From an uncultured bacterium (lineage in GTDB: Bacteria > Fidelibacterota > Marinisomatia > Marinisomatales > TCS55), in NCBI GenBank assembly GCA_964452665.1, contig CAYVNB010000002.1, forward strand, positions 1 through 40,260: a stretch of 40,260 bases of DNA, written 5' to 3'. Within the stretch, counting starts at the first letter, position 1; each line of letters opens with the position of its first letter. Below the pieces are notes generated by a model, which was not told where the DNA came from, ran no database searches, and saw only the letters and a program-made list of their open reading frames with translations. Both the position numbers and the translations under genes were made by a program. Positions 4,102 through 18,947 of this stretch are shown one piece after another.

Positions 4102-4108
4102 AGAAAAA

Positions 4109-4134
4109 GGGGCAGAACATTCTGCCCCTTTTTT
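4109..4134. terminator. Bidirectional intrinsic terminator between convergent genes
   Basis: GGGGCAGA-acat-TCTGCCCC is a perfect 8-bp stem. It is flanked by AAAAA on the left and TTTTTT on the right, so it reads as hairpin plus U-run on both strands. Confidence 0.8.
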
Positions 4135-5600: not shown

Positions 5601-6038
5601 CTATGAATTTCGTATGTGATTGATTAATGCTTTTAATGCTTCAAAGTATCCAGCTTTGCCCTTACCAGATATTTGACCTATACACACATTTTTGATTACA
5701 GATTTCTTTCTAAAATCTTCTCTTTGATTTATATCGCTTATGTGAACTTCAATAACCGGATTTGATATTGAAGAAATTGCATCTCGAAGTGCATACGAAT
5801 AGTGGGTTAATGCCCCTGGGTTAATAATTAACCCATCAAATTCATTAATGGAGGCATGAATCTGGTCAATTAGGTCTCCCTCATGGTTTGATTGAAACCA
5901 TATAACTTCATACCCATCTGACTCTATTTGGGAATTAAGCCATATTTCGATATCTTTTATTGAATCGGTACCATAAATATCGGGTTCCCTTAGGCCTAAT
6001 AGATTAAGGTTAGGGCCATTTAGGACTAATAATTTCAT
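5601..6038 (-). CDS. aroQ: 3-dehydroquinate dehydratase, type II
   Basis: Motifs LNGPNLNLLGLREPDIYG, SNHEG and INPGALTHYS are present, and the length (145 aa) fits. Confidence 0.95.
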   Translation of the reverse strand: MKLLVLNGPNLNLLGLREPDIYGTDSIKDIEIWLNSQIESDGYEVIWFQSNHEGDLIDQIHASINEFDGLIINPGALTHYSYALRDAISSISNPVIEVHISDINQREDFRKKSVIKNVCIGQISGKGKAGYFEALKALINHIRNS

Positions 6039-7105
6039 TGGATCACTTTAAGAGATTGTTTGATTAAATCATCTGTAACTGATTGAGATATTTTACTTAC
6101 ACCAATTTTATCCAAAATAACAAAATTTAGAATACTGTTTCTAACTTTTTTATCTCTTTTCACGAATGATAAAATGGCACTTGAATCAAGTTCGAAAATG
6201 GAATGTAGAGATAATTTTTCAATAGTTTGGATTAAATATTCTTCATCAACTTTATCTAAGGATCCAATTTTGCTTGAGATCCATCCAGCACATTTCATGC
6301 CTAGCGCCACAGCTTCACCATGGCGGATGCCTTCATACTTAAAATGAGCTTCTAGCGCATGACCTATAGTATGACCAAAATTTAATAATCTTCGCAATCC
6401 GTCTTCCCGTTCATCTTTAGAAACTATTTCTGCTTTAATTTCACAGGAACGATTGACAGCTTTTTCAAATGGAAAAGAATCCAAATCATCTAACCAGTGA
6501 GAAATTTGATCAAAAAATTCTCGATCCCAGATAGCACCATATTTTATGACTTCACTCAACCCAGAAATCAGTTCTCGTTTTGGGAGTGTATCTAAAATTT
6601 TAGGATCTATCAATACACCTTTTGGTTGATAAATGGCTCCAACTAGATTTTTTCCTTCAGTAAAATTAATTCCTGTTTTCCCGCCAATCGCAGAATCCAC
6701 CATAGCTAATAGTGTTGTCGGAATTTGATAATACTCTATACCGCGCATAAAAGATGATGCAACAAATCCGCCTACGTCACCAACCACTCCACCACCTATT
6801 GCCAATATAGTGGTGGATCTGTCGCACTTCAATTTGATCATTTGGCTAATTACTCCGCTGAATTCGTCAAGACTCTTTGCAGCTTCACCAATTGGGAGGG
6901 TTAAATAATCGATATCAAAGTCTGAATCTTTTAATTGAGCCATTAGTTCAAATCCAAATAATTCCATTAGCTTGTATTGGGATATAATGACCCATTTTTG
7001 ACCATGATTATTTTTAGACAGAATTGTTGGAAACTCCTGCATAAGCCCCGATTTTACCTGAATCGGGTAAGAGCGATTACCTAGTTCGACTTGAATTGTT
7101 TTCAT
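6035..7105 (-). CDS. aroB: 3-dehydroquinate synthase
   Basis: Motifs GGGVVGDVGGFVAS and HTIGHALE are present. There is a 4-nt overlap with aroQ. Confidence 0.93.
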   Translation of the reverse strand: MKTIQVELGNRSYPIQVKSGLMQEFPTILSKNNHGQKWVIISQYKLMELFGFELMAQLKDSDFDIDYLTLPIGEAAKSLDEFSGVISQMIKLKCDRSTTILAIGGGVVGDVGGFVASSFMRGIEYYQIPTTLLAMVDSAIGGKTGINFTEGKNLVGAIYQPKGVLIDPKILDTLPKRELISGLSEVIKYGAIWDREFFDQISHWLDDLDSFPFEKAVNRSCEIKAEIVSKDEREDGLRRLLNFGHTIGHALEAHFKYEGIRHGEAVALGMKCAGWISSKIGSLDKVDEEYLIQTIEKLSLHSIFELDSSAILSFVKRDKKVRNSILNFVILDKIGVSKISQSVTDDLIKQSLKVIQ

Positions 7106-7596
7106 GAGTTCAGGTCCAATAAAATCTCATTTGTGATTTGTATGCTGGTTTTTCCATCGGTATCTATTGTCATATCTGCTAACGATAGATATTGAGCTCG
7201 TCTATCTAACCACAATTTAATCAAAGATTCTTTTTCATTATTTTTCGCCAGTAGAGGTCTTTTCCCCGCGCCTTTCAATCGGCGAACTAGTTCGTCAATA
7301 GAAGCTGTTAATAAAATTGTCGTACCATTTACTTTAATGAAATTCCGATTTTCCTCTTTCAATATAATTCCGCCACCACAAGAAACGACTGAAGCTGATA
7401 CTTCCTTCAAGCGCTCTGTTTCTATTTTCCTGAAAGTGGCCTCTCCATCTAACTTAAATATTCCAGAAATAGTTTTTCTTGTACTTTTTTCAATTTCTTT
7501 ATCAAGATCAACAAATGGTATTTTCAATTCATTCGCAAGTAATACTCCAACTGTTGATTTGCCAGTACCCATCATCCCAATTAAAAAAATATTCAT
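7102..7596 (-). CDS. aroK: Shikimate kinase
   Basis: Walker A GMMGTGKSTVG is present, the length is 164 aa, and there is a 4-nt overlap with aroB. Confidence 0.93.
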   Translation of the reverse strand: MNIFLIGMMGTGKSTVGVLLANELKIPFVDLDKEIEKSTRKTISGIFKLDGEATFRKIETERLKEVSASVVSCGGGIILKEENRNFIKVNGTTILLTASIDELVRRLKGAGKRPLLAKNNEKESLIKLWLDRRAQYLSLADMTIDTDGKTSIQITNEILLDLNS

Positions 7597-8756
7597 TAAT
7601 ATTTTGCAGTAGATTTTATATGGGTTTTGAGTTGTTCTATTGAATCACCACCGAATTTTTCTAGTAAAGCATCAACAAGAACAAAACATAACATACTTTC
7701 TGCGATGATTGATGCAGCGGGTACGGCACAAGAATCAGTCCGTTCTTTATGGGCATCCTTTTCTTCCAATGAATGAATATCCACCGATCGTAAGGGTTTG
7801 ATTAGCGTTGGGATTGGTTTCATGGCCATCCGCAAAACGATGGGTTGGGCATTGCTCATTCCACCTTCGATTCCACCTGCATTATTGGAGTAGCGGGTAA
7901 ACTTCTTACTATCATGACCAATTTCATCATGGACTTCACTACCAAATTTTTCGGCACCACCAAATCCGCTGCCAATTTCTACAGCCTTAAAGGCATTTAT
8001 GCTCATCATCATAGCTGATATACGAGTTTGAAGTTTGCGATCCCATTGGGTGTGTGCACCAAGCCCGTAAGGAAGTCCCTTGGCGATCACTTCAAAAATG
8101 CCACCTACTGAATCACCTGTTTTTTTAGCATCATCAATTTTTTCTGTCATTTTTGTTTCAGCATCTTTATCTAAACATCGAACATGTGATGCATCTGCCA
8201 TTTCACTCAATTGATTTGGTGTAAGATTTTCGGGTATAGGAGTTTCATCTTTTACATCATGGATTTCTATCACGCGGCTGCCAACTTCAATACCTATATC
8301 TTCCAATAATTTTCGGCAAATTGACCCTAGGGCCACACGCATGGTGGTCTCTCTGGCGCTAGATCGTTCGAGCACATTGCGGATATCATCAAACCCATAT
8401 TTTTGGACGCCAGCTAAATCCGCATGACCCGGTCTGGGGAGTGTCACCTTTCGAATGTCATCTTCCACAGGAGTGACAGACATTTTTTTAGTCCAATTTT
8501 CCCAATCCTTATTACGTACAATAAGACCAACAGGTGCGCCAATGGTTTTACCATGACGAACACCACACCAAATCTCAGCATGGTCAGTTTCAATTTTCAT
8601 TCGTCCACCACGACCGTAACCCATTTGACGCCGCTTCAATTGGTGACTAATATAATCTTCTGAAATGTCCAGTTCTGCCGGTATGCCATCTAAGATGCCA
8701 AGCAAGCCTTTTCCATGGGATTCTCCCGCTGTGAGGAATTTAATTCGTGTTAACAT
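7596..8756 (-). CDS. aroC: Chorismate synthase
   Basis: Motifs FLTAGESHGK and RPGHADL are present. A TAATG junction links it to aroK. Confidence 0.95.
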   Translation of the reverse strand: MLTRIKFLTAGESHGKGLLGILDGIPAELDISEDYISHQLKRRQMGYGRGGRMKIETDHAEIWCGVRHGKTIGAPVGLIVRNKDWENWTKKMSVTPVEDDIRKVTLPRPGHADLAGVQKYGFDDIRNVLERSSARETTMRVALGSICRKLLEDIGIEVGSRVIEIHDVKDETPIPENLTPNQLSEMADASHVRCLDKDAETKMTEKIDDAKKTGDSVGGIFEVIAKGLPYGLGAHTQWDRKLQTRISAMMMSINAFKAVEIGSGFGGAEKFGSEVHDEIGHDSKKFTRYSNNAGGIEGGMSNAQPIVLRMAMKPIPTLIKPLRSVDIHSLEEKDAHKERTDSCAVPAASIIAESMLCFVLVDALLEKFGGDSIEQLKTHIKSTAKY

Positions 8757-9556
8757 AATTTTGATTTTAATGCCATTTTAATTGGCTCCATTTTGATTTT
8801 CTCTGAAATTTTTTCTCCAAACCAAATATCAGCAGATGCTAAACCTTGAGCAATAAACATGTCTAATCCACTAACTGTTTTAATATTGGATTTTTTCCCC
8901 TTCTTCAACCATTTTGTTTCAAGGGGGTTGTATATTGTATCGGCTATTATTTGTCCTTTATGAATTTTGATTTTTGGTATGGATTCGATATCAGGCCACA
9001 TACCGATGGGGGTGCAATTGATGATAATTTGGTGATGTTGTGACGTATTAAGTTGTTCAAGTTGCGATGCTTTTATGGAAGATATTTCCCCAATCCATTT
9101 GGTGAACTGGCTTGCTTTTTCAATAGTACGATTCACAACTGTGATTGATTGTACTTTAGCTTGGATGAGCGCATAAGCTACTGCACGTGCTGCACCGCCG
9201 GCACCCAGTATAACACATTTTTTTTCATTTAAATCGATACAATTAATCTCCATAGCTTTGGCAAATCCAATCCAATCGGTATTGAATCCTTTAGATTTAT
9301 GAATACAATTCACAGCACCAATAATTTGAGCAGCATCATCCAATTCTTCCAAAAAGGGAATAATGGACTGTTTGTGAGGCAGAGTGACATTAAACCCGTT
9401 TAAATGGTTTGAATTCATGAATAAATGGATCGAATCATCCTTCACTCGAATTTTTTTATATTCAGCTTTAATATCAAGTTGCCTATAAATCTCACCATGA
9501 AGGGTTGAGCTTAAACTATGGGCAATCGGATCACCAATAACAGCAAATCGCTTCAT
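8750..9556 (-). CDS. aroE: Shikimate 5-dehydrogenase
   Basis: Motifs NVTLPHK and the NADP-binding GAGGAARAV are present. Confidence 0.9.
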   Translation of the reverse strand: MKRFAVIGDPIAHSLSSTLHGEIYRQLDIKAEYKKIRVKDDSIHLFMNSNHLNGFNVTLPHKQSIIPFLEELDDAAQIIGAVNCIHKSKGFNTDWIGFAKAMEINCIDLNEKKCVILGAGGAARAVAYALIQAKVQSITVVNRTIEKASQFTKWIGEISSIKASQLEQLNTSQHHQIIINCTPIGMWPDIESIPKIKIHKGQIIADTIYNPLETKWLKKGKKSNIKTVSGLDMFIAQGLASADIWFGEKISEKIKMEPIKMALKSKLC

Positions 9557-10815
9557 TGAGTTAATCTTTCCAATTCATCATAAAACCCCGGATAGGAAAT
9601 AAACGCGCATTCGGGATAGTCTAAAATTATATCGCCATCAGTAATGAGCCCGGCAGTAGTGAAGGCCATGGCAATCCGGTGGTCATGGAATGTTTCAATT
9701 TCAGCGCCCTTTAATTGTGTTGGTCCTTGAATAATAAATCCATCTTCTAATTCTTCTACATTGCCACCCATTTTTTTCAAATTATTGCAGATAGCATGAA
9801 TCCTGTCGCATTCTTTCACCCGCAATTCTTCGGCGCCCCGAACATCAGTTTTTCCATTTGCTTGAGTGGCAAGAATGGCAAGAATAGGCAATTCGTCAAT
9901 TAATCCCGGTACATCATTTTTGGAAATTGAGATGCCCTGCAATGATTGGTGAAACACGCGTAAATTTCCCAGTGACTCTCCTGCTTTTTCCCATTGTTTA
10001 AGGTATTCTATTCCTGCGCTCATTTTTTTAAGAGCACTAAAAAATCCAATTCGAGTTGGATTTTTCAAAATACGATTCAGAATCAAATCAGAGCTTGGTA
10101 TCATGGCTGCAGCGGCAGCAAAAAATGCTGCTGTTGATGGATCACTCGGTACCACCAAATTGATGGGAGATAAAGGCCAGGAAGTCTTGGTGATGGTTTT
10201 TGTAAGGCCATCTGATGAAAGATTAGCTCCCATACTTTTTAGCATCCTTTCAGTATGATCTCTAGAAAGAAGCGGTTCAGTTACGGATGTTTCTCCTTCC
10301 GCACCTAGCCCTGCCAGAAGAATGGCAGATTTCACTTGGGCACTCGCGACCGGTGAATCATAATGAATGCCTTTCAAATCACTTTTGAGAATCTTCACCG
10401 GTAATTTTCCATTATTACTTTCTGATTTCAATCCCATTTGAGATAAGGGATCTAAAATACGATTCATGGGACGGGAAGAGAGAGAATCATCTCCAACCAA
10501 GGTTGTATTAATGCCATTCATGCCTAAAAGTCCTAAAAGCAATCGTGCTGTAGTACCAGAATTACCGCAGTCTAATGGTTGGATTGGATCAGAAAATTTC
10601 CCTCCAGTTACGATGACATCCTCACTATCATTTTGAAATTGAATACCACAGGCTTCCAGACAGGATCGGGTTGATTGCACATCGGCACCAGTAGAAAGGT
10701 TGGTAATTCGAGATTCACCATCTGAAATGGCAGCAAACATAAGCGCTCGGTGGGAGATGGATTTATCTCCCGGTAATGTAATTGCACCTTTAATGGCCAT
10801 TGGCTTTAAGTTCAT
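9553..10815 (-). CDS. aroA: 3-phosphoshikimate 1-carboxyvinyltransferase (EPSP synthase)
   Basis: Motifs [10 protein letters not shown] and [12 protein letters not shown] are present. The start is ambiguous (TTG 10821, ATG 10815, ATG 10800), and every option overlaps the DAHPS 3' end. Confidence 0.9.
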
Positions 10816-12133
10816 CTGCAATTAAAAAAGCCAGTTCAATAGCTTGATTTGCATTAAGACGTGGATCACAGTGAGTGTGATAACGGTTTGAGAGATCTGC
10901 TTCAGAAATATCATCTAATCCACCTGTGCATTCTGTCACATTTTGGCCAGTCATTTCTAAATGAATCCCGCCCAAACGTGATCCAGCATTTTTGTGTATT
11001 CGGATATTTTCTTTTACTTCTTCTAATATTTTGTTAAATGGTCGTGTTTTTATTCCATCAGATCTTTTAATAGTATTGCCATGCATTGGGTCACAAGACC
11101 AAACAACAGTCCTGCCTTCGTCTTGTACTTTTTGAATCAATTTCGGCAAATAGGAAGAAACTTTTTCATGGCCAAATCTAGTAATTAGTGTAATCCTGCC
11201 TGCCTCATCATTAGGATTAAGAATATCCAACAGTTTGATCAATTCATCAGTATCCAAAGATGGACCACATTTTATACCGATAGGATTTTTGATTCCACGG
11301 CAAAATTCTACATGTGCGCTTTCTTCGAATCGTGTGCGATCTCCAATCCAAACGAAATGGGCTGACATATTATATACATCACCAGATGTCGAGTCAACGC
11401 GAGTCAGTGCTTCTTCGTAAGGGAGTAACAATGCTTCATGGCTCGTGTAATAATGAACCTGTCGTAGCTGAGGTGTATTTCCGGTATTAATTCCCAAGGC
11501 TTCCATGAAATTCAAACTCTCTTGGATCTGGTGAGCTAAGTAGCGATACCGTTCACCTTGGGGACCACTTTTCACAAATCCCATATTCCAAGAATTCACA
11601 TGGTGCAGATCCGCATAGCCACCATCGGCAAAAGCACGAAGCAAATTAAGTGTTGATGCAGCTTGGGAATAAGCCTTCAGCATCCGCTCTGGATTTGGAA
11701 TACGCTTTGATTTATCAAATTTTATATCATTAATAATGTCGCCGGAATAACTGGGGAGTTCAACCCCATCTTTAGTTTCTGTTGGGCTGGATCGTGGCTT
11801 GGCAAATTGACCTGCCATTCGACCCACTTTCACCACAGGGAGATTGGCACCGGATGTTAAAATAATTGCCATCTGTAAAATGACACGAAATGTATCTCGA
11901 ATATTATCGGCATGAAATTCCGTGAAGCTTTCGGCGCAATCACCGCCTTGCAATAGGAAACCATTTCCTTGTGCCACATCAGCCAGGGAGCGTTTTAAGG
12001 AACGCACCTCACCGGCAAAAACAAGGGGCGGAAAATCCTTTAAAGTTTTTTCCACTTCTCTTAAATGATCCTGATCAGGGTAATTGGGAATATGTTTGGC
12101 GGTAAAATTTCGCCAGCTGTTAGTCTGCCACAT
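10790..12133 (-). CDS. 3-deoxy-7-phosphoheptulonate (DAHP) synthase, class II
   Basis: The size is about 447 aa. The N-terminus SWR..A.H.PNYPD and the motifs [12 protein letters not shown] and IGDRTR are typical of class II (plant/actinobacterial-type) DAHPS. Confidence 0.9.
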
Positions 12134-12216
12134 GTTGTACTTTCTTTAAGTGACTATCCAAAGATTCCGTCGCCAAAATTTAAATTGATCATGGCTGTCT
12201 CGAATATTATTCATTA

Positions 12217-12984
12217 TCATTTTCCTTTCAATTTTTGTATCAAAAATTTGGTTGCTTCAACAGGGTCAGATTCCCCATCCATATTTTTAATAATGGCTGA
12301 TCCCACTACGACGCCGTCTGAATGTTCATTGAACCAAGTGACATCATCCCTTGTACTGATTCCGAAACCAACAACAAAGGGTGTAGTACTATTTTCACGG
12401 ACTCTATTTAGGTATTCGGCTAATGTATCTCTGGAGACCAGATCATTTCCGGTAATACCCAAGATGCTAACAGCATAAATGAGATCGCCTGCTAATTCAG
12501 AAATTTGTTTAATCCGTTCATTAAATGTATTAGGCGCCACCAACAAAATAGGGGAGACACCTTTTCCTTTTGCCAATTCACAAAATGGCTCAGCTTCATC
12601 CAATGGAAGATCGGGAAGGATCAACCCATCTACGCCGGCTGAAATACAACGATGCAAAAAGGTCTCATGGCCCATTTTCAAAATTGGATTATAATACCCC
12701 ATAAGCGCTAACGGGACTTGGGTTCGACTTCGGATTTCTGCTACCTGCTCAAAAATTTTGTTTAAAGTCATCCCATTATCTAATGCCTGTTGGCTGGATG
12801 CCTGGATGACAGGGCCATCTGCTTGGGGGTCGGAAAAAGGGATGCCAATTTCAACCATATCTGCACCTGCATCGGCGGCGGCACAAACCAATTCCACAGT
12901 GCTGTCCAACTTCGGATATCCGGCGGTGAGAAATGGAATAAGCATTTCTTTGGGTTCACTAAATAATGACTGAATCCTATTCAT
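12217..12984 (-). CDS. trpA: Tryptophan synthase alpha chain
   Basis: Motif [15 protein letters not shown] is present. There is a 4-nt overlap with trpB. Confidence 0.95.
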
Positions 12985-14189
12985 AACTTAATCCCCAATG
13001 CGTCTGCAACGGTGTGGACATCCTTATCTCCACGGCCAGAAAGGCAAACCACCACATCTTCATTTGGTGCGATACCATTATTTAATTGTCGCAGATAAGC
13101 CAGGGCATGGGCTGACTCCAATGCTGGTAAGATACCTTCTTTTTCAGAGAGCCACTTGAAGTTGTCCAATGCTTCTTGATCAGTGGCAGAATGGTATTCT
13201 ACCCGTCCAGATTCATTTAAATAACTGTGCTCCGGGCCAATGCCGGGATAATCCAGTCCAGCAGAAATAGAATGGGGGAGTGTGATCTGTCCGTCGTCAT
13301 CCTGAAGCAGAGTGGATGCAGCACCATGTAAAACACCAAAGTCACCCTTGGTCAATGTGGCGGCGTGCTCTCCGGATTCAAGTCCTTTGCCTGCCGCTTC
13401 TACACCAATAATTTTTACATCATATTTCAGGAATGGATAAAATAATCCCAAGGCGTTTGATCCACCGCCAACGCAGGCCACTAATCGATCTGGTAAATCC
13501 TTGCCAGACTGATTTGCAAATTGTTCCTTTGCTTCCTTGCCGATGATTGATTGAAAATCCCGTACCAACATAGGGTAGGGGTGGGGGCCCACGGTAGAGC
13601 CGATGAGATAATAAGTAGATTCTACATTGGTAACCCAATCCCGTATGGCTTCGTTTGTGGCATCTTTCAATGTCATACTTCCGGAAGAAACGGGGCGGAC
13701 TTCTGCCCCCAATAAATTCATTCGAAATACATTAAGCTTTTGACGCCGGATGTCTTCTTCCCCCATATAGACGACGCATTCCAGCCCAAACCGTGCAGCG
13801 ACGGTAGCCGTTGCTACACCATGCTGGCCAGCGCCGGTTTCAGCAATGATACGTTTTTTCCCCATGCGGTTGGCCAATAAGATTTGACCCAATGCATTAT
13901 TGATCTTATGAGCGCCGGTGTGATTCAAGTCTTCCCGTTTAAGCCAAACGTTGAATCCCAGTTCTTCAGAAATTCTTTCTGCATGATAAAGAGCCGTTGC
14001 CCGTCCGGAATAATGATTCAATAAGGTGGTTAATTCATTTTGGAATTTGAAATCATCCATTGCCTCTATGTAATGGCGTTCCAAGTCTTCCAGAGCAGGG
14101 ATGAGTGTTTCAGGGACGTACTTTCCTCCAAACTTTTCAAAATGCCCCTTGGAATCGGGGAGATTATAATTATTAAATTTATCTTCCAT
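12981..14189 (-). CDS. trpB: Tryptophan synthase beta chain
   Basis: Motifs [11 protein letters not shown] (PLP-binding Lys) and GGGSNA are present. Confidence 0.96.
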
Positions 14190-14193
14190 ATTT

Positions 14194-14865
14194 TTAAGTG
14201 TTCATACGTTTAAGTGTTAGACTGTCCGTGAACACGTTTATACTTGAACAGGTTTCTTTGAGTTTAGTAAAAAGTGTTTTCATTTTATTGTGATCTTTTA
14301 TTCCTGGTGATTTTTCAATCCCGCTATTCACATCAACTGCTGCAGGATTTACAGATTCAATTGCATCCATAATATTATTTGGGTTGAGCCCTCCGGATAA
14401 AATAATTGGCGTGTCAGACTTTCTTTTCAAAAAGGACCAATTGAATGTTTCACCGGTTCCCCCATAAGCATCTTTGGAAAAGGTGTCTAATAAAAATGCA
14501 TCTACTTTGTAGTTATCCATGGCAGCCATGCTGGCTTCATTTTTGATACGAAGCGCCTTTATCACGGGCACACTAATCTGATTGCAGAATTCAGGGGATT
14601 CATCGCCATGGAGTTGGATCAAATCCAATGGAATGCTTTGGATTGCATCATCAATAAATGATTTATCGTGATTCACAAAAACGCCCACTTTTGCCATACG
14701 GTTTTGGGTGTGATTGGCGATGGATTTTACTTTATCAATCGATATGGCTCGGGGACTATTGTCATAAAAAATAAACCCGATGGCAGACGCACCATGGTCC
14801 TCGGCGCATTTAGCATCCGCTAAATTGGTTATGCCGCAAATTTTGATGGGGATCATGACAGGCAC
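14194..14865 (-). CDS. trpF: Phosphoribosylanthranilate isomerase
   Basis: The N-terminus has KICGIT and the gene sits between trpC and trpB. The start could also be the ATG 9 nt downstream. Confidence 0.88.
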
Positions 14866-15614
14866 CCAATCAATGCTTCCAAAGCTTTCCCGGGATACCC
14901 TGTTTTCATGAGAGATGTTCCCACCAGCACTGCATCGTAACTCAGGTCCGCCAAATATTTCAAATCATCGTTTGTTTTGATCCCGCTTTCAGCCACCTTT
15001 ATAGATCCACTTGGTAGGCGAGGTGCCATACTTGCAAAATAGGAAATATCCGTGGTCATAGTCTTGAGATCACGGCAATTGACGCCCACAATCTCCGGTG
15101 CGATTTCAGCAACAATATCTGCATTTTCTTCGCTGTGAAATTCCACGAATGCTTCCAGATTTAATTCCTTCCCAAAGTTGATAAATGCATCAATGTCATG
15201 TTGGCTCAAAGCTTCTGCAATCAATAAGAAAGCATCTGCCCCTGCGCATGCAGCTCCCATGATTTGGTGATCACTAATGATAAAATCTTTCCGCAAAACT
15301 GGAATGGATACAGCTTTTTTCACGGACTCCAAAATATCAATATGCCCACCAAAAAATTGTTTATCAGTAAGTACAGAAATGGATGCAGCCCCGGCCGATT
15401 CATAATCTTTGGCGATTTGCACCGGATCCCCATTGGGGAGAATATTTCCTTCACTGGGAGACTTCATTTTAATTTCTGCGATAACAGATATTCCGGGAGC
15501 AGAAAGGGCATTCTTCAGGCTCAACGTATCGAATGGTTCAACCACACCTGCATAAGGGTGCATGCGTTCCATTTCTTTCCGTTTTACGGCTAATATTTGT
15601 TCAAGGATGTTCAT
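14853..15614 (-). CDS. trpC: Indole-3-glycerol phosphate synthase
   Basis: Motif VIAEIKMKSPSEG (IAExKxxSPS) is present. There is a 4-nt overlap with trpD. Confidence 0.93.
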   Translation of the reverse strand: MNILEQILAVKRKEMERMHPYAGVVEPFDTLSLKNALSAPGISVIAEIKMKSPSEGNILPNGDPVQIAKDYESAGAASISVLTDKQFFGGHIDILESVKKAVSIPVLRKDFIISDHQIMGAACAGADAFLLIAEALSQHDIDAFINFGKELNLEAFVEFHSEENADIVAEIAPEIVGVNCRDLKTMTTDISYFASMAPRLPSGSIKVAESGIKTNDDLKYLADLSYDAVLVGTSLMKTGYPGKALEALIGCLS

Positions 15615-16606
15615 TTTGTTAATTGCTTGAGTATATTGAGCGCTGCACCGGAATCCACTGATTCAGTTGCTTTCCTTAGTCCTTCTCTTAGGCTTTTGGC
15701 TTTGCCGCCCACCACAATTCCAGCGGCAGCATTTATCAAAACAATATCCCGTTTGGATCCTTTTTCTCCATTTAAAATATTGCGGATTGTTTCCGCATTT
15801 TCTTTTGGTTCTCCACCTTGAAGCTCATCCAGAGACACACGAACTAATCCCAAATCAATGGGATCAAATTCAAAGGTTTCCACAGGACCGCTATTTTGAA
15901 TTTGGCTGATTTTTGTTGTAGCGGTGGTGGATATTTCATCCAGACCATCTCGTCCGTGGAAGACCATTACTTTGGTAGAGCCCAGTGCCTTTAATACATT
16001 GGCTTGGATCTCGGTTAAATCGGCGTGAAAGATGCCCATGGCCTGGGCCTTCACATCGGCAGGATTGCACAGTGGTCCTAAAATATTGAATACCGTGCGA
16101 GTGGCCAAAGCAGTTCTAGCCCCGACAGCATATTTCATTGCGGGGTGGTATGCTGGAGCAAACATGAATCCTAATCCAATTTCTTCAATATCTGCCGTGG
16201 ATCCTTCCACCGGTTTATCAATGGCAATTCCCAAAGCCTGGAGCACATCCGCTGATCCAGATTTGGATGTCATGGAGCGATTCCCATGTTTGGCCACATG
16301 AATGCCGGCGCCTGCCACCACAAAAGTAGCGGTGGTAGAAATATTGAATGTCCCCAATGCATCACCGCCAGTACCGCACATATCAATGGCAGGTGTTTCT
16401 AATGGGACTTTGACCATTTTCTCCCGCATGGCTTGGGCGAATCCAGTTATCTCATCTACTGTTTCACCTTTTGATCTTAACGCCATTAAAAATCCGGCGA
16501 TCTGTGCATCATTATATTCTCCGGACATGATGGAGAGCATTATACTAAATGCGTCGTCTCGGGCAAGATTTTGGTTATCTAATAATTGTTCTAATATTTG
16601 TTTCAT
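15611..16606 (-). CDS. trpD: Anthranilate phosphoribosyltransferase
   Basis: Motifs CGTGGDALGTFNIST and KHGNRS are present. Confidence 0.94.
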   Translation of the reverse strand: MKQILEQLLDNQNLARDDAFSIMLSIMSGEYNDAQIAGFLMALRSKGETVDEITGFAQAMREKMVKVPLETPAIDMCGTGGDALGTFNISTTATFVVAGAGIHVAKHGNRSMTSKSGSADVLQALGIAIDKPVEGSTADIEEIGLGFMFAPAYHPAMKYAVGARTALATRTVFNILGPLCNPADVKAQAMGIFHADLTEIQANVLKALGSTKVMVFHGRDGLDEISTTATTKISQIQNSGPVETFEFDPIDLGLVRVSLDELQGGEPKENAETIRNILNGEKGSKRDIVLINAAAGIVVGGKAKSLREGLRKATESVDSGAALNILKQLTK

Positions 16607-16660
16607 TATATTCTCACGTACCCTGAGTTTTCAGAATGGGACTTTCATGTTTTGAGAGGT

Positions 16661-17230
16661 TCAACATTCGATTTCTAAAAAATTTCTAATGATTTGTTTT
16701 CCTTTCTCCGTCGCAATGGATTCAGGATGAAACTGTACCCCGAAAACAGAATGGGATTCATGTTGAATTCCCATGATCAAGCCATTACCTGATTGGGCAA
16801 TGATTTGTAATTCTTTCGGAAGTGAATCTTTTTCCGCCACCAATGAATGATATCTTGTTGCGGTGAATGAACCATTTAACCCTTTGAATAAAGCCGATTC
16901 TTTGTGTTGAATGTTTGTAGTCTTTCCATGGATAATTTCCGATGAATGCACCACCTTTCCGCCATAGGCGATAGTAATGGCTTGATGGCCAAGACAGACC
17001 CCAAGTATGGGAGTGGTCGCCCCATACTTTTTTATAACATTTACTGAATGTCCTGCAGTTTCTGGTCGGCCGGGGCCAGGTGAAATCACTATATGGGATG
17101 GTTGCCATTGATTAATATCATCTAAATCGAATTGGTCATTCCGTATCACTTTCACTTTTGGATTCATGGCTCCAATATATTGAACCAAATTATAGGTGAA
17201 GGAGTCGTAGTTGTCGATAACCAAAATCAC
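16661..17230 (-). CDS. trpG: Anthranilate synthase component II (glutamine amidotransferase)
   Basis: Motifs MILVIDNYDSFTYNL, GVCLGHQ (catalytic Cys) and QFHPES are present. An ATGA overlap links it to trpE. Confidence 0.92.
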   Translation of the reverse strand: MILVIDNYDSFTYNLVQYIGAMNPKVKVIRNDQFDLDDINQWQPSHIVISPGPGRPETAGHSVNVIKKYGATTPILGVCLGHQAITIAYGGKVVHSSEIIHGKTTNIQHKESALFKGLNGSFTATRYHSLVAEKDSLPKELQIIAQSGNGLIMGIQHESHSVFGVQFHPESIATEKGKQIIRNFLEIEC

Positions 17231-18711
17231 ACCGATAATCCATTCTCTGCAAAATCAATGGCCGCCATGATGGCCTTTGCCTTATTCACCGTTTCTTCAA
17301 ATTCTTTGGTTGGGTCCGAATCATGGATGATACCTGCCCCAGACTGAAAATGAACCACGCCATGTTTTATTACCATTGTGCGGATGGCAATACACGTATT
17401 TACATTACCTGTAAAATCAAAAAACCCTACAGCACCGGAATAAATATTTCGCCTTTCAGGTTCCAATTCGTAAATAATCTCCATGGCACGAATCTTGGGT
17501 GCGCCTGTGACCGTCCCTGCCGGGAATCCACTCATAAGCGCATCGAAGGGATTTTTATTATTAGCCAACTTTCCTTTCACATCAGAAACAATATGCATGA
17601 CGTGTGAATAATTTTCGATCACCATATTTTCCGGTATAGTAACGGAGCCAAATTCAGAAACACGGCCCACATCATTTCGTCCCAGATCCAATAGCATGAG
17701 ATGTTCGGCGCATTCTTTCTCATCATTCATTAAGTCTTGGGCCAATGCTTTATCTTCAACTTCAGAGTTGCCCCGTGGGCGTGTACCGGCAATTGGCCTG
17801 ATTTCTACAGTACCGTCTTCAATTTTCACAAGGAGTTCCGGCGATGCGCCAATAATATCAAAATCATTAATCTTCAAATGAAACATGTAGGGTGATGGAT
17901 TAATATTCCGCAATGCACGGTACAGGGTGGCAGGTGCCACGGAAGTTTGGCGCTGGAATCTTTGGCTTAAAACAAGCTGAAAAATGTCCCCATCCACAAT
18001 ATACTGTTTTGCTTTTCGAACTGCGGATTCGAATTCATCCTGATGAAAATTGGATGAGACTTCACTTTTCTCCACCCAGACAGGCGTTTTGTAATCCACG
18101 TCTGAATAAAGGGATTCAACAATCATATTCACTCGGGCGTGGGCTGCGTCAAATTGGGATTGGAGATCTTCATCTGGTTCTACATTTATATTAGAAATAA
18201 CCAGTGCAGATCCCTTTAAATGGTCAAAGGCGACCATGTCTTCAAATACCATGAAAACAGCATCGGGGACGTCCATGGCAGAATCGGTGTGGGTGGGAAT
18301 ATCTTCGATCCAAGCGATAGTTTCATAGCCGAGATAGCCCACCAATCCCCCGGTGAAAGCAGGAATGCCCGGAAGTTTTACCATATTATACTGGGCTTGG
18401 GTTTCCCGGAGTAAATCAAGATAAGGTGTTTCCACTTCAATGGTTTGATCATCTTCGGTAATGGTAGTTTTTCCATCCTTGTGCGTCAGAATTTTTCGTG
18501 GATTAACACCTACATAAGAATATCGGACGTATTGATTCCCTTTTTCTACTGATTCCAGCAAAAAGGCATATTCAGCTTTTTGGGATAAATGTACCCAGGC
18601 TGTCACAGGTGTAAGCAGGTCTGCTAATATCCTTTTATAGACTGGGACAGTCAAACAATCTTGGGAGACCAAGTTTTGAAATTCGTCATATGTGAGTTGT
18701 GTTTTATCCAT
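17227..18711 (-). CDS. trpE: Anthranilate synthase component I
   Basis: Motifs LLESVE, GAVGFFD and GAGIIHDSDP are present. I prefer the ATG at 18711 (MDKTQL...) over the TTG at 18720, which lies inside the U-run of the upstream terminator. Confidence 0.93.
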   Translation of the reverse strand: MDKTQLTYDEFQNLVSQDCLTVPVYKRILADLLTPVTAWVHLSQKAEYAFLLESVEKGNQYVRYSYVGVNPRKILTHKDGKTTITEDDQTIEVETPYLDLLRETQAQYNMVKLPGIPAFTGGLVGYLGYETIAWIEDIPTHTDSAMDVPDAVFMVFEDMVAFDHLKGSALVISNINVEPDEDLQSQFDAAHARVNMIVESLYSDVDYKTPVWVEKSEVSSNFHQDEFESAVRKAKQYIVDGDIFQLVLSQRFQRQTSVAPATLYRALRNINPSPYMFHLKINDFDIIGASPELLVKIEDGTVEIRPIAGTRPRGNSEVEDKALAQDLMNDEKECAEHLMLLDLGRNDVGRVSEFGSVTIPENMVIENYSHVMHIVSDVKGKLANNKNPFDALMSGFPAGTVTGAPKIRAMEIIYELEPERRNIYSGAVGFFDFTGNVNTCIAIRTMVIKHGVVHFQSGAGIIHDSDPTKEFEETVNKAKAIMAAIDFAENGLSV

Positions 18712-18718
18712 TTTGAGC

Positions 18719-18748
18719 AAAAAAAAACCCCGATCGAGGTCGGGGTTT
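18719..18748 (-). terminator. Intrinsic terminator immediately upstream of trpE (candidate attenuator terminator)
   Basis: The minus-strand RNA reads AAACCCCGA-ccucga-UCGGGGUUUUUUUUU. The stem pairs 18740-18745 with 18728-18733, extendable by AAA/UUU, and is followed by 9 U (18727-18719). The trpE ATG is 8 nt after the U-run. Confidence 0.7.
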
Positions 18749-18793
18749 AAACATAGTCAGTATGTACGGGTTTCTCTAGGACTATATTACCCC
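18742..18793 (-). promoter_or_regulatory. Candidate antiterminator helix competing with the trpE-proximal terminator
   Basis: RNA GGGGU..AUAGUC (18793-18780) can pair with GACUAU..ACCCC (18758-18742). That is 5+6 bp around an internal loop. It uses the same CCCC (18742-18745) that forms the 5' arm of the terminator. Confidence 0.4.
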
Positions 18794-18850
18794 TTCGGAG
18801 TTAAATAACCAGTACCAACTGTTATACTTTTCTGTGTTCATCTTAAACAT
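18782..18850 (-). CDS. Candidate trp/aromatic leader peptide MFKMNTEKYNSWYWLFNSEGVI
   Basis: This 22-codon ORF has UGG-UAC-UGG at 18817-18809, and 5 aromatic codons overall. Its UAG stop (18784-18782) lies inside the antiterminator 5' arm. It was absent from the supplied ORF track, presumably because it is too short. Confidence 0.45.
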   Translation of the reverse strand: MFKMNTEKYNSWYWLFNSEGVI

Positions 18851-18947
18851 TGCCTAAGATATTAAACTAAGTACAGTGCTACTACAAACATTATTTTTCT
18901 AGAATTTATAGTTTGAATATCGTGGCGGAGCCAGATTCAATTATAAT

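What the first reader, a model, noticed from the sequence alone, without database searches (positions are those of the whole stretch)
18719..18887. Leader peptide with W-Y-W-L-F codons and switchable helices upstream of trpE: candidate ribosome-mediated attenuator
The 227-nt region between the M20 gene stop (18948) and trpE contains a short minus-strand ORF at 18850-18782, MFKMNTEKYNSWYWLFNSEGVI*. It has UGG UAC UGG at 18817-18809, and 5 of its 22 residues are aromatic. Fifteen nt after the second UGG, the sequence GGGGUAAUAUAGUC (18793-18780, containing the UAG stop) can pair with GACUAUGUUUAAACCCC (18758-18742). The CCCC of that 3' arm (18742-18745) is also the 5' arm of a GC-rich hairpin, CCCCGA/UCGGGG, followed by 9 U, which ends 8 nt before the trpE ATG. 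This geometry matches the E. coli trpL logic. A ribosome stalled at the Trp codons would leave the antiterminator free, allowing readthrough. A ribosome that reaches the stop codon would occupy the antiterminator 5' arm, so the terminator forms. The operon also carries the common shikimate pathway, so a mixed W/Y/F leader could sense more than Trp; that part is speculative. A weak sigma70-like promoter candidate (TTGTAG-17 nt-TAATAT, 18887-18859) lies just upstream, but it would give an almost leaderless leader ORF.
Basis: partly seen in the sequence, partly recalled or inferred. Interest (0 to 1): 0.65.

Follow-up and report, generated by a model that had tools for sequence, protein, structure and literature searches.

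The report
Aromatic-codon leader attenuator before trpE
A 22-codon leader ORF rich in Trp, Tyr and Phe codons, followed by competing antiterminator and terminator hairpins, sits before the tryptophan/shikimate operon of an uncultured marine Marinimicrobia bacterium; it is a textbook-type attenuator that is conserved across the phylum and probably senses all three aromatic amino acids.

Summary
The ORF MFKMNTEKYNSWYWLFNSEGVI* (18850-18782, minus strand), the 14-bp antiterminator (18793-18780 with 18758-18742) and the terminator plus U9 (18748-18719) are all present.

The window is from Ca. Marinimicrobia (SAR406). The same arrangement precedes trpE in 58/58 loci with TrpE at least 74% identical, 7/7 at 64-73% and 15/32 at 53-63%. 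It travels with trpE whatever gene lies upstream.

Across 50 distinct leaders the ORF has no indels and W14 is invariant. The antiterminator shows compensatory change (G-C 29, A-U 18) and is stronger than the terminator (-17.7 versus -13.1 kcal/mol). RNAalifold recovers it unaided.

The geometry fits trpL logic. A ribosome stalled at the Trp codons leaves the GGGG arm free, and one at the UAG inside that arm blocks it.

Tyr/Phe fill 49% of positions within three residues of Trp in nine divergent leader clades, against about 8% elsewhere. Relatives' operons also carry pheA and tyrA plus the shikimate genes.

No Rfam family matches. The promoter assignment is unresolved. There is no experimental evidence. 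I rate it a new variant of a known kind, of moderate interest.

The parts
18885..18893 (-). Conserved upstream box 1, TAATGTTTG (consensus TAAnGTT(G/T)G).
   Evidence: Nearly invariant columns in alignment A1. Similar boxes lie upstream of other operon heads in the window. Function not shown.
18859..18866 (-). Conserved upstream box 2, TTTAATAT (consensus CTTAATAT), ending 8 nt before the leader ATG.
   Evidence: T24, A25, A26 and T29 are invariant in 50 sequences. RNA contigs X28 and X33 start upstream of or at this box in L018, so a -10 role is doubtful.
18782..18850 (-). Leader ORF of 22 codons plus UAG: MFKMNTEKYNSWYWLFNSEGVI*.
   Evidence: In 50 distinct relatives the 69 ORF columns have 0 gaps, the start is ATG (48) or GTG (2), and TAG is invariant.
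18803..18826 (-). Regulatory codon window, codons 9-16: Y N S W Y W L F here, and Y/F Y S W Y W F F in the family consensus. Trp codons are at 18817-18815 and 18811-18809.
   Evidence: W12 in 49/50 and W14 in 50/50 sequences. Position 9 is only Y or F (35/15). Position 13 is Y in 45 and F in 2. Position 15 is F in 41 and Y in 7. Position 16 is F in 48. Clade-level enrichment.
18807..18821 (-). Segment A, CAGUUGGUACUGGUU (the Trp codons). Proposed 5' arm of an anti-antiterminator or pause helix pairing with segment C.
   Evidence: It forms in the unconstrained fold of the window. 88.5-98.6% of cells are paired in 50 sequences. Duplex energy is -12.5 versus -8.0 kcal/mol for shuffles. Rated probable, not firm.
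18780..18793 (-). Segment B, GGGGUAAUAUAGUC. This is the antiterminator 5' arm and contains the leader stop codon UAG (18784-18782).
18758..18772 (-). Segment C, AACCCGUACAUACUG, in the antiterminator loop. It is complementary to segment A and shares G18758 with segment D.
   Evidence: The partner sequence changes in step with the Trp region in L076, L077 and L078.
18742..18758 (-). Segment D, GACUAUGUUUAAACCCC. This is the antiterminator 3' arm. Its AAACCCC is also the terminator 5' arm.
   Evidence: Pair 107:142 is G-C in 29, A-U in 18 and G-U in 2 sequences. 91.6% of cells are paired, against 31-44% when the partner is slid.
18719..18748 (-). Intrinsic terminator: AAACCCCGA, a 6-nt loop, UCGGGGUUU, and a U9 run ending 7 nt before the trpE ATG.
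   Evidence: 9 bp, 5 G-C. Stem and U-run are invariant or nearly so in 50 relatives. Hairpin energy is -12.9 kcal/mol.
5601..18711 (-). Regulated genes: trpE, G, D, C, F, B, A, then class II DAHP synthase, aroA, aroE, aroC, aroK, aroB and aroQ. These are 14 contiguous same-strand genes.
   Evidence: Pfam hits. No minus-strand terminator-like site between the leader terminator and 4133. Co-transcription of the aro genes in this window is inferred. An 83-nt trpA-DAHPS spacer could hold an internal promoter.

Best explanation
This is a leader-peptide (ribosome-mediated) transcription attenuator that controls the trp/shikimate operon of a Ca. Marinimicrobia bacterium.

Proposed mechanism. RNA polymerase transcribes a 22-codon leader ORF while a ribosome translates it.

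- With ample charged tRNA, the ribosome runs to the UAG. That codon lies inside the antiterminator 5' arm (segment B, GGGGUAAUAUAGUC), so the ribosome covers B. Segment D is then free to pair with the terminator 3' arm, and transcription stops at the U9 tract 7 nt before trpE.
- With scarce Trp-tRNA, the ribosome stalls at UGG-UAC-UGG (codons 12-14). Its footprint ends just short of B, which starts 15 nt after the second UGG. B pairs with D as soon as D is made, the terminator 5' arm is sequestered, and polymerase reads into trpEGDCFBA and the aro genes.
- The stalled ribosome also covers segment A (the Trp codons). Segment A can otherwise pair with segment C inside the antiterminator loop. 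A:C and B:D cross and share one nucleotide, so they are mutually exclusive. A:C probably acts as the anti-antiterminator or pause helix, the counterpart of the 1:2 helix of E. coli trpL.
- The Tyr and Phe codons packed around the Trp codons (codons 9-16) occupy exactly the stretch where a stall covers A but not B. The leader therefore probably also reports Tyr-tRNA and Phe-tRNA supply. This fits an operon that in most relatives also encodes prephenate dehydratase, prephenate dehydrogenase and the whole common pathway.

Shown here: the sequence features, their conservation, covariation of B:D, the relative energies, and the gene content.

Inferred: translation of the ORF, the stalling, the response to any amino acid, and the roles of A:C and of the Tyr/Phe codons.
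For: Anatomy is as described.

Organism and operon:
- TrpE relatives are named Ca. Marinimicrobia or Neomarinimicrobiota.
- Pfam identifies trpEGDCFBA followed by seven shikimate-pathway genes.

Conservation:
- A leader ORF plus terminator is found in 58/58 loci with TrpE at least 74% identical, 7/7 at 64-73% and 15/32 at 53-63%.
- The upstream gene differs between the window (M20 peptidase) and relatives (chorismate mutase), yet the element stays with trpE.

ORF behaviour in 50 distinct sequences:
- 0 gaps in the 69 ORF columns, while the non-coding loops carry indels.
- Start and stop codons are conserved. W12 is present in 49/50 and W14 in 50/50.

Antiterminator:
- 91.6% of cells are paired, against 31-44% for slid controls. 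Pair 107:142 is G-C 29, A-U 18, G-U 2, and 0/500 shuffles reach the covariation score.
- It is the consensus structure returned by RNAalifold without guidance.
- Mean hairpin energy is -17.7 versus -13.1 kcal/mol for the terminator, and -13.8 versus -12.9 kcal/mol in the window.

Ribosome masking:
- With the A site on the second UGG, the full antiterminator is the minimum-energy fold in the window and in L004.
- With the A site on UAG, the terminator forms.

A:C helix:
- It appears in the free fold of the window. 88.5-98.6% of cells are paired. Duplex energy is -12.5 versus -8.0 kcal/mol for shuffles.
- Its sequence is re-matched in L076, L077 and L078.

Aromatic cluster:
- Tyr/Phe occupy 30/61 positions within 3 residues of Trp in nine divergent Marinimicrobia leader clades, against 8/104 elsewhere in the same peptides and 7.5% in window proteins. 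Balneolales WWW leaders have 0/42.
- Y/F interchange and synonymous TAT/TAC and TTT/TTC changes occur at positions 9, 10, 13 and 15.
- In four leader clades the operon reads CM | leader | trpEGDCFBA-PDT-PDH-DAHPS-aroA-aroE-aroC.

RNA: metatranscriptome contigs span leader, terminator and the trpE 5' end in a relative, at L018:2834-3171 and 2844-3051.

Precedent: the C. glutamicum AroR leader with Phe-Tyr-Phe before aroF (PMC11802643), and the Bacteroid-trp leader in Bacteroidetes (PMC2864571, supplement).
Against: - There is no experimental evidence that the ORF is translated, that the terminator works, or that read-through responds to any amino acid. The organism is uncultured.
- At equilibrium with the full terminator present, many relatives still fold into the terminator even with the ribosome masked on the Trp codons. 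The switch therefore has to be kinetic, as it is in E. coli.
- Covariation in B:D rests mainly on two or three haplotypes that may derive from few events. Only 4 of 14 pairs change on both sides.
- The A:C helix is weak evidence. Its 5' arm is constrained by coding, 12/50 and 9/50 sequences break two of its outer pairs, and it does not form in truncated free RNA, where B:D wins in all sequences. It is also not better than shuffles in L012 and L015.
- No Shine-Dalgarno sequence is visible and the transcription start is unknown.
- In this window pheA, tyrA and CM are absent, two aromatic positions are lost (N10, L15), and an 83-nt spacer before the DAHP synthase gene could hold its own promoter. 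Control of the aro genes, and Tyr/Phe sensing, are therefore less certain here than in relatives.
- In C. glutamicum the Tyr codon of AroR had no detectable effect (PMC11802643).
Confidence: 0.82

Rival explanations
1. Trp-only attenuator. The mechanism is as above, but only the two UGG codons are regulatory. The neighbouring Tyr/Phe codons would be kept for another reason, such as an A/U-rich unstructured spacer, the pairing needs of segment A, or nascent-chain properties.
For: - TAT/TAC of codon 13 and the third base of codon 10 lie in the A:C helix.
- Phe and Tyr codons are A/U-rich, as are the other leader codons (N, K, I).
- In C. glutamicum AroR the Tyr codon had no measurable effect (PMC11802643).
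- The window's own leader has lost two aromatic positions yet keeps both Trp codons.
Against: - The Tyr/Phe enrichment recurs in nine leader clades with unrelated nucleotide sequences. It is confined to within 3 residues of Trp: 49% there against 7.7% elsewhere in the same peptides.
- Position 9 is only Y or F, and position 15 is F or Y in 48/50, although other A/U-rich codons would serve equally as spacer.
- Codons 15-16 lie in a loop, not a helix.
- Relatives' operons encode the Phe and Tyr branches.
- Balneolales leaders lack Tyr/Phe next to the Trp codons.
Confidence: 0.35
2. The terminator/antiterminator switch is real but is set by a trans-acting factor (a TRAP-like RNA-binding protein, uncharged tRNA as in T-boxes, or a small ligand) rather than by the translating ribosome. 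The short ORF would then be incidental.
For: trpE is controlled by T-boxes in several other phyla. T-box-like GGUGGCACCGCG was seen upstream of trpE in L038-L041. The B. subtilis aro/trp supraoperon uses TRAP (PMC1173090).
Against: - No Rfam family, including T-box and the riboswitches, matches at gathering threshold or at E up to 10.
- By eye there are no repeated (G/U)AG triplets and no T-box sequence.
- The ORF has 0 indels in 50 sequences with near-invariant Trp codons and a fixed 15-nt spacing to B. An untranslated RNA would have no reason to keep these.
Confidence: 0.05
3. The hairpin simply terminates the upstream gene (M20 peptidase here). The ORF and the alternative pairing are chance features, and trpE is transcribed independently.
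For: The window fold alone is not significantly more stable than shuffles (z = -1.57). Terminator-like sites in the region are no more frequent than in shuffled sequence.
Against: - The element is conserved with trpE behind different upstream genes.
- Only 7 nt separate the U-run from the trpE ATG.
- RNA contigs cross the terminator into trpE.
- The ORF and the antiterminator are conserved and covary.
Confidence: 0.02
4. A TnaC-like arrest peptide. The aromatic-rich nascent chain would sense free aromatic amino acid in the ribosome exit tunnel and stall the ribosome at the stop codon. This would hold segment B covered and enhance termination when amino acids are plentiful.
For: The peptide is 22 residues long with a conserved Trp at position 12, as in TnaC (from memory). 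The stop codon sits inside the antiterminator arm, so a ribosome arrested there would favour termination.
Against: - The C-terminal residues (G-V-S/L/T) are explained by the RNA arm GGGGUU and vary at the last position.
- There is no conserved Pro or Asp as in TnaC.
- The leaders of other clades share only the Trp plus Tyr/Phe codon cluster, not a peptide motif.
- Codon-level sensing explains the data without this.
Confidence: 0.03

Closest known systems
E. coli trp operon leader (trpL; Rfam Trp_leader RF00513)
   Same: - A short leader ORF with Trp codons a few codons before its stop.
- An intrinsic terminator just before trpE.
- An antiterminator that shares a strand with the terminator.
- A stalled ribosome frees the antiterminator, and a ribosome at the stop codon blocks it.
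- An additional upstream helix involves the Trp codons.
   Different: - No sequence or structure similarity: no RF00513 hit even at E up to 10.
- The Trp codons are split by Tyr (W-Y-W) and embedded in Tyr/Phe codons.
- The stop codon lies inside the antiterminator 5' arm.
- The putative anti-antiterminator pairs the Trp codons with the antiterminator loop (A:C crossing B:D), rather than sharing a strand with it.
- There is no Shine-Dalgarno sequence.
- The operon continues into the shikimate pathway.
Bacteroid-trp leader motif (Weinberg et al. 2010, Rfam RF01692)
   Same: A predicted Trp-codon peptide leader upstream of trpE/trpB in a related lineage. This placement of Marinimicrobia near Bacteroidetes in the FCB group is from general knowledge. 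The motif is described as a loosely conserved hairpin with two or more UGG codons (PMC2864571 supplement).
   Different: - No match of RF01692 to the window or to 19 related loci.
- A different phylum.
- The published motif has no described antiterminator, no Tyr/Phe codon cluster and no supraoperon context.
Balneolales (Balneola/Gracilimonas) trpE leaders found here
   Same: A 23-24-codon leader ORF, a GC-rich terminator with a U-run, and an antiterminator 5' arm that mimics the terminator 3' arm.
   Different: They have three consecutive Trp codons (WWW) and no Tyr/Phe next to them (0/42). Their sequences are unrelated. There is a long spacer (28-199 nt) between terminator and trpE. Their operon content beyond trpC was not seen.
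Corynebacterium glutamicum aroR leader (Phe-Tyr-Phe) upstream of aroF
   Same: A leader peptide with mixed aromatic codons that controls a DAHP-synthase operon by ribosome stalling (PMC11802643).
   Different: It has no Trp codons and regulates only the aroF operon. It responded to Phe but not to Tyr. It is actinobacterial and unrelated in sequence.
Bacillus subtilis aro/trp supraoperon regulated by TRAP
   Same: trp genes are embedded with common-pathway and tyrA genes in one transcription unit under a terminator/antiterminator switch (PMC1173090).
   Different: The sensor there is the Trp-activated RNA-binding protein TRAP acting on (G/U)AG repeats, not a translated leader. Gene order also differs.

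Membership tests
Leader-peptide (ribosome-mediated) transcription attenuators of amino-acid biosynthetic operons | A short ORF immediately upstream of the operon that contains codons for the operon's end product | tested here: met
   A 22-codon ORF with two UGG codons. W12 is present in 49/50 and W14 in 50/50 relatives, and the ORF has 0 indels.
Leader-peptide (ribosome-mediated) transcription attenuators of amino-acid biosynthetic operons | An intrinsic terminator between the leader ORF and the first structural gene | tested here: met
   A 9-bp stem with 5 G-C pairs plus U9, ending 7 nt before the trpE ATG. Conserved in all 80 leader-bearing loci; the stem and U-run are near-invariant in the 50 aligned.
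Leader-peptide (ribosome-mediated) transcription attenuators of amino-acid biosynthetic operons | An antiterminator helix mutually exclusive with the terminator, supported by conservation or covariation | tested here: met
   B:D shares AAACCCC with the terminator. 91.6% of cells are paired, with compensatory G-C/A-U change at pair 107:142. It is the RNAalifold consensus. Energy is -17.7 versus -13.1 kcal/mol.
Leader-peptide (ribosome-mediated) transcription attenuators of amino-acid biosynthetic operons | Geometry: a ribosome stalled at the regulatory codons leaves the antiterminator free, and a ribosome at the stop codon occludes it | tested here: met
   A fixed 15 nt lies between the second UGG and GGGG, and UAG lies inside the 5' arm. 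Masked folds switch as predicted in the window and in L004. The footprint size is taken from general knowledge.
Leader-peptide (ribosome-mediated) transcription attenuators of amino-acid biosynthetic operons | An anti-antiterminator or pause helix involving the regulatory codons (the 1:2 helix of trpL) | tested here: inconclusive
   The A:C helix is predicted in the window and is mostly paired in relatives. It is only modestly better than shuffles and is out-competed by B:D in free truncated RNA.
Leader-peptide (ribosome-mediated) transcription attenuators of amino-acid biosynthetic operons | Read-through increases when the cognate aminoacyl-tRNA is limiting, and depends on leader translation | not testable with these tools
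   The organism is uncultured. The public RNA data available were Logan contigs, which give neither reliable depth nor transcript ends.
Rfam Trp_leader (RF00513) | A match to the family covariance model | tested here: not met
   No hit at gathering score or at E up to 10 on 18600-19000.
Rfam Bacteroid-trp (RF01692) | A match to the family covariance model | tested here: not met
   No hit in the window or in 19 related Marinimicrobia or Balneolales loci.
T-box leaders / TRAP-regulated trp leaders | T-box sequence and specifier loop, or about 11 (G/U)AG repeats | tested here: not met
   No T-box family hit in Rfam. No repeat array is visible in the sequence.

The most novel reading that the evidence does not exclude
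A single leader peptide integrates the charging state of tRNA-Trp, tRNA-Tyr and tRNA-Phe. Its Trp/Tyr/Phe codon cluster fills exactly the stall window between the anti-antiterminator and the antiterminator. It thereby governs a supraoperon of about 16 genes that makes all three aromatic amino acids from erythrose-4-phosphate and PEP. The design would be ancestral to much of Marinimicrobia (SAR406). In lineages such as this window's, where pheA, tyrA and CM have left the operon, the Tyr/Phe codons are starting to decay.
Probability: 0.4. Interest if true: 0.6.

Novelty: new variant of a known kind. Interest (0 to 1): 0.45.

Why it matters
Leader-peptide attenuation is textbook biology, but it is documented almost entirely in Proteobacteria and Actinobacteria, with one loosely defined motif in Bacteroidetes.

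This analysis shows it to be the conserved regulator of aromatic amino-acid synthesis in Marinimicrobia (SAR406), an abundant uncultured ocean phylum. No Rfam model detects these leaders, so they are currently missed or mis-called. In L132, for example, the gene caller merged part of the leader region into trpE.

If the Tyr/Phe codons are functional, this would be a natural multi-input attenuator. One short peptide would read three tRNA pools to control one operon for a branched pathway. That would offer a clean test case for how codon number and position set attenuator sensitivity.

The element also gives a sequence-only indicator of aromatic amino-acid prototrophy and its regulation in organisms that cannot yet be grown.

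Tried and rejected
- Rfam scans of the window at gathering score, of the leader region at E up to 10, and of 19 related loci gave no relevant family. Only terminator-driven chance hits such as STnc180 appeared, plus unrelated SAM and TPP riboswitches.
- Transcript evidence for the window itself gave only two or three short RNA contigs inside trpE and nothing over the leader.
- For relative L018, RNA contigs cover leader, terminator and trpE. I first read their 5' ends (2834, 2844) as a transcription start after the TAAnGTTGG box. A further run (X35) has a contig joining the chorismate-mutase gene to the leader. The start site is therefore unresolved, and I dropped both the leaderless-mRNA reading and the Bacteroidetes-type -7 promoter reading as conclusions.
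- Equilibrium folding with the full terminator present does not show the switch in most relatives. I used arm-level energies and truncated transcripts instead.
- I looked for a contrast group to test whether the Tyr/Phe cluster tracks pheA and tyrA in the operon. The Balneolales loci were too short to see the operon end, and their proteins were not among the hits listed, so this was not tested.
- Looking for leader peptides before other operons in relatives: the thrA operon in L130 carries a SAM riboswitch instead.
- Literature searches found no report of attenuators in Marinimicrobia.
Full report
**Observation.**
- A 22-codon ORF, MFKMNTEKYNSWYWLFNSEGVI*, runs from ATG 18850 to TAG 18784-18782. 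UGG-UAC-UGG lies at 18817-18809.
- Fifteen nt after the second UGG comes GGGGUAAUAUAGUC (18793-18780), which contains the stop codon.
- Its complement GACUAUGUUUAAACCCC lies at 18758-18742.
- A 9-bp terminator, AAACCCCGA/UCGGGGUUU (18748-18725), is followed by a U9 run ending at 18719.
- Small corrections: six rather than five residues are aromatic, seven nt rather than eight separate the U-run from the trpE ATG (18711), and the intergenic distance to that ATG is 236 nt.
- The fold of the window sequence alone is not remarkable (z = -1.57), so the case rests on comparison with relatives.

**Context.** TrpE encoded at 18711-17227 has hundreds of close relatives labelled Candidatus Marinimicrobia or Neomarinimicrobiota, all from marine metagenomes.
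- Pfam identifies 14 contiguous minus-strand genes: trpE, G, D, C, F, B, A, then class II DAHP synthase, aroA, aroE, aroC, aroK, aroB and aroQ, ending at 5601.
- No terminator-like site lies on that strand between the leader terminator and 4133.

**Conservation.** I collected 25 Marinimicrobia loci from GTDB species genomes and 80 from metagenomes.
- A short Trp-containing ORF followed by a GC-rich hairpin and a U-run lies before trpE in 58/58 loci with TrpE at least 74% identical, 7/7 at 64-73% and 15/32 at 53-63%.
- In most relatives the gene upstream is a small chorismate mutase (CM_2), not the M20 peptidase seen here. The element therefore belongs to trpE and not to the upstream gene.
- In an alignment of 50 distinct leaders (A3) the 69 ORF columns contain no gap, although the non-coding loops carry indels.
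- The start codon is ATG (48) or GTG (2) and TAG is invariant. Trp is at position 12 in 49/50 and at position 14 in 50/50.

**Terminator and antiterminator.**
- The pairing of 18793-18780 with 18758-18742 is maintained in 91.6% of cells, against 31-44% when the 3' partner is slid.
- Pair 107:142 alternates G-C (29) and A-U (18), with two G-U intermediates. No shuffle of 500 reaches the observed covariation score.
- RNAalifold, given only the alignment, returns this helix as the consensus structure.
- As an isolated hairpin it is more stable than the terminator: -13.8 versus -12.9 kcal/mol in the window, and a mean of -17.7 versus -13.1 kcal/mol in 50 relatives. In transcripts truncated before the terminator 3' arm, the exact GGGG:CCCC register check was met in 41 of 50 sequences. 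In the other nine the isolated hairpin still pairs the arms in a shifted register.
- The terminator itself is nearly invariant.

**Ribosome geometry.** The distance from the second UGG to the GGGG arm is fixed at 15 nt, and the stop codon always lies inside that arm.
- I folded the window transcript with about 28 nt masked around the A site.
- With the A site on the second UGG, the full antiterminator is the minimum-energy structure. With the A site on UAG, the terminator forms. L004 behaves the same way.
- In many other relatives the terminator remains the equilibrium optimum even with the mask. The switch therefore has to be kinetic, with the antiterminator forming before the terminator 3' arm is made. 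This is the case in E. coli as well (general knowledge).

**A third helix.**
- In the unconstrained fold the Trp-codon segment CAGUUGGUACUGGUU (18821-18807) pairs with AACCCGUACAUACUG (18772-18758), inside the antiterminator loop.
- This A:C helix crosses B:D and shares G18758 with it, so the two cannot coexist.
- It is 88.5-98.6% paired across relatives. The duplex averages -12.5 kcal/mol against -8.0 for shuffled loops.
- In L076 (W-C-W), L077 (W-E-W) and L078 (K-Y-W) the loop sequence has changed to match the altered codons.
- On the other side, several sequences break its outer pairs, L012 and L015 are no better than shuffles, and B:D out-competes it in free truncated RNA.
- I rate it a probable anti-antiterminator or pause helix, not an established one.

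**The aromatic codon cluster.** In the main clade, positions 9, 10, 13, 15 and 16 are almost always Tyr or Phe.
- Position 9 is Y in 35 and F in 15 sequences, with nothing else. Position 15 is F in 41 and Y in 7.
- Synonymous TAT/TAC and TTT/TTC changes occur at these positions.
- More divergent clades have leaders with no nucleotide similarity but the same habit...IWGFYFYFSY......AFWNKFWYYY......FNYYWYYQ......NFWWYF......SYYWH......KYFWCEW......AWWWTYF... and ...KFYFWFWY....
- Over nine clades Tyr/Phe fill 30 of 61 positions within three residues of a Trp. Elsewhere in the same peptides the figure is 8 of 104, and it is 7.5% in window proteins. The binomial p against a 12% expectation is about 1e-12. 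Balneolales WWW leaders have 0 of 42.
- Codons 9-16 are also the stretch where a stalled ribosome would cover segment A without covering segment B. This is an inference from footprint size.
- Long contigs from four leader clades show the operon CM | leader | trpEGDCFBA - prephenate dehydratase - prephenate dehydrogenase - DAHP synthase - aroA - aroE - aroC..., with overlapping gene ends. The Phe and Tyr branches are thus behind the same leader.
- The window is a derived case. CM, PDT and PDH are absent from this locus and from the whole 40 kb. Its leader has Asn and Leu where the family has Tyr10 and Phe15. This fits relaxed selection but is a single case.

**Promoter and RNA evidence.**
- The first box resembles the Bacteroidetes -7 element TAnnTTTG (consensus cited from general knowledge). 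Similar boxes precede other operons in the window.
- In relative L018, two metatranscriptome contigs (2834-3171 and 2844-3051) run from upstream of the leader ATG (2861) through the terminator into trpE. The leader and trpE are therefore co-transcribed and read-through transcripts exist.
- Another run has a contig joining the chorismate-mutase gene to the leader.
- These are assembled contigs that may include DNA. The start site, and hence the near-leaderless concern, stays open.

**Comparison with known systems.**
- The logic is that of E. coli trpL. However, neither Trp_leader (RF00513), Bacteroid-trp (RF01692) nor any other Rfam family matches the window or 19 related loci.
- Weinberg et al. 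(2010) predicted a Trp peptide leader in Bacteroidetes, described as a loosely conserved hairpin (PMC2864571 supplement).
- I also found unannotated WWW leaders in Balneolales.
- A mixed aromatic leader has one precedent, AroR (Phe-Tyr-Phe) before aroF in C. glutamicum, where only Phe had an effect (PMC11802643).
- aro/trp supraoperons are known in Bacillus, under TRAP control, and in Nostoc (PMC1173090).
- A search of the paper library for 'Marinimicrobia' together with 'attenuator' returned no paper.

**Rivals.**
- A plain terminator for the upstream gene is contradicted by the conservation with trpE, the 7-nt spacing and the read-through RNA.
- A protein-, tRNA- or ligand-set switch is unlikely given the indel-free ORF, the invariant Trp codons, and the absence of T-box, TRAP or riboswitch signatures.
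- A TnaC-like arrest peptide is not excluded, but nothing requires it.
- The live alternative is a Trp-only attenuator whose Tyr/Phe codons are incidental. I give that about one chance in three.

**Verdict.** It is a new, Rfam-invisible variant of a well-known mechanism, conserved through much of an uncultured marine phylum. There is good comparative evidence, but no experimental evidence, that it reads all three aromatic amino acids. Interest is moderate.

Noticed in passing
window 5601-18711 (-); L127, L131, L132, L134: The window carries a 14-gene trp plus shikimate cluster. Relatives carry a version of about 16 genes with prephenate dehydratase and prephenate dehydrogenase between trpA and DAHP synthase, and a small chorismate mutase gene just upstream of the leader. 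The window lineage has lost all three from this locus.
   Followed up: yes
window 12134-12216 (-): An 83-nt spacer lies between trpA and the DAHP synthase gene, where relatives have pheA and tyrA with overlapping gene ends. It contains TAAATTTTG, which resembles the Bacteroidetes -7 promoter box, so the aro genes here may have gained an internal promoter.
   Followed up: partly
window 18885-18893 and 18859-18866 (-): Two conserved boxes (TAAnGTT(G/T)G and CTTAATAT) lie upstream of the leader ATG. TAnnTTTG-like boxes also lie 43-85 nt upstream of other operon heads in the window (ORF starts at 1445, 12133, 20417 and 24640). Marinimicrobia promoters may be Bacteroidetes-like rather than sigma-70-like.
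   Followed up: partly
L001/L131, L047, L058, L065, L078 (between terminator and trpE ATG); Balneolales L026-L033, L042, L044: Insertions of 53-155 nt sit between the attenuator terminator and trpE, several with GCCAC...GTGGC-type inverted repeats. In L001 the original 'GCUCAAAAUGGAU' start context is retained upstream of the insert. They look like small mobile or repeat elements that target this spot.
   Followed up: no
L133 (and L089-L098, L124): This is a Marinimicrobia-like clade with TrpE about 61-63% identical. A cation-efflux gene sits between the chorismate mutase gene and trpE. There is no leader ORF or terminator, and DAHP synthase is missing from the operon. The attenuator appears to have been lost here.
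   Followed up: partly
L025-L033, L042, L044 (Balneola/Gracilimonas), about 100-340 nt upstream of trpE: Leader ORFs with three consecutive Trp codons (for example MKNEFAQNNNWWWPVIEHNSGTAT) are followed by a strong terminator. No Rfam family, including Bacteroid-trp, matched in the four of these loci that were scanned (L025, L026, L029, L044).
   Followed up: partly
L130:1496-1611 (+); L117:837-935 (-): A SAM riboswitch (80.4 bits) precedes a thrA-asd-thrB-thrC-metB operon in a Marinimicrobia contig. A TPP riboswitch lies in another contig. This phylum therefore mixes riboswitches and leader peptides for amino-acid operons.
   Followed up: yes
L132:10001-11563: The public gene call for trpE in this contig starts 78 nt too far upstream (520 aa instead of about 494), so it begins inside the leader ORF and runs through the terminator. 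This shows how such leaders are missed by automatic annotation.
   Followed up: partly
window 4104-4133 (-) and ORF 4133-5311 (-): A strong 13-bp terminator follows a 392-aa ORF that has no Pfam hit and lies downstream of aroQ after a 290-nt gap. Whether this ORF belongs to the operon is unknown.
   Followed up: no
L038-L041, L126: Upstream of trpE in Firmicutes, Chloroflexota and other loci pulled in by the search, the sequence GGUGGCACCGCG typical of T-box leaders is visible by eye. It was not tested with Rfam.
   Followed up: no
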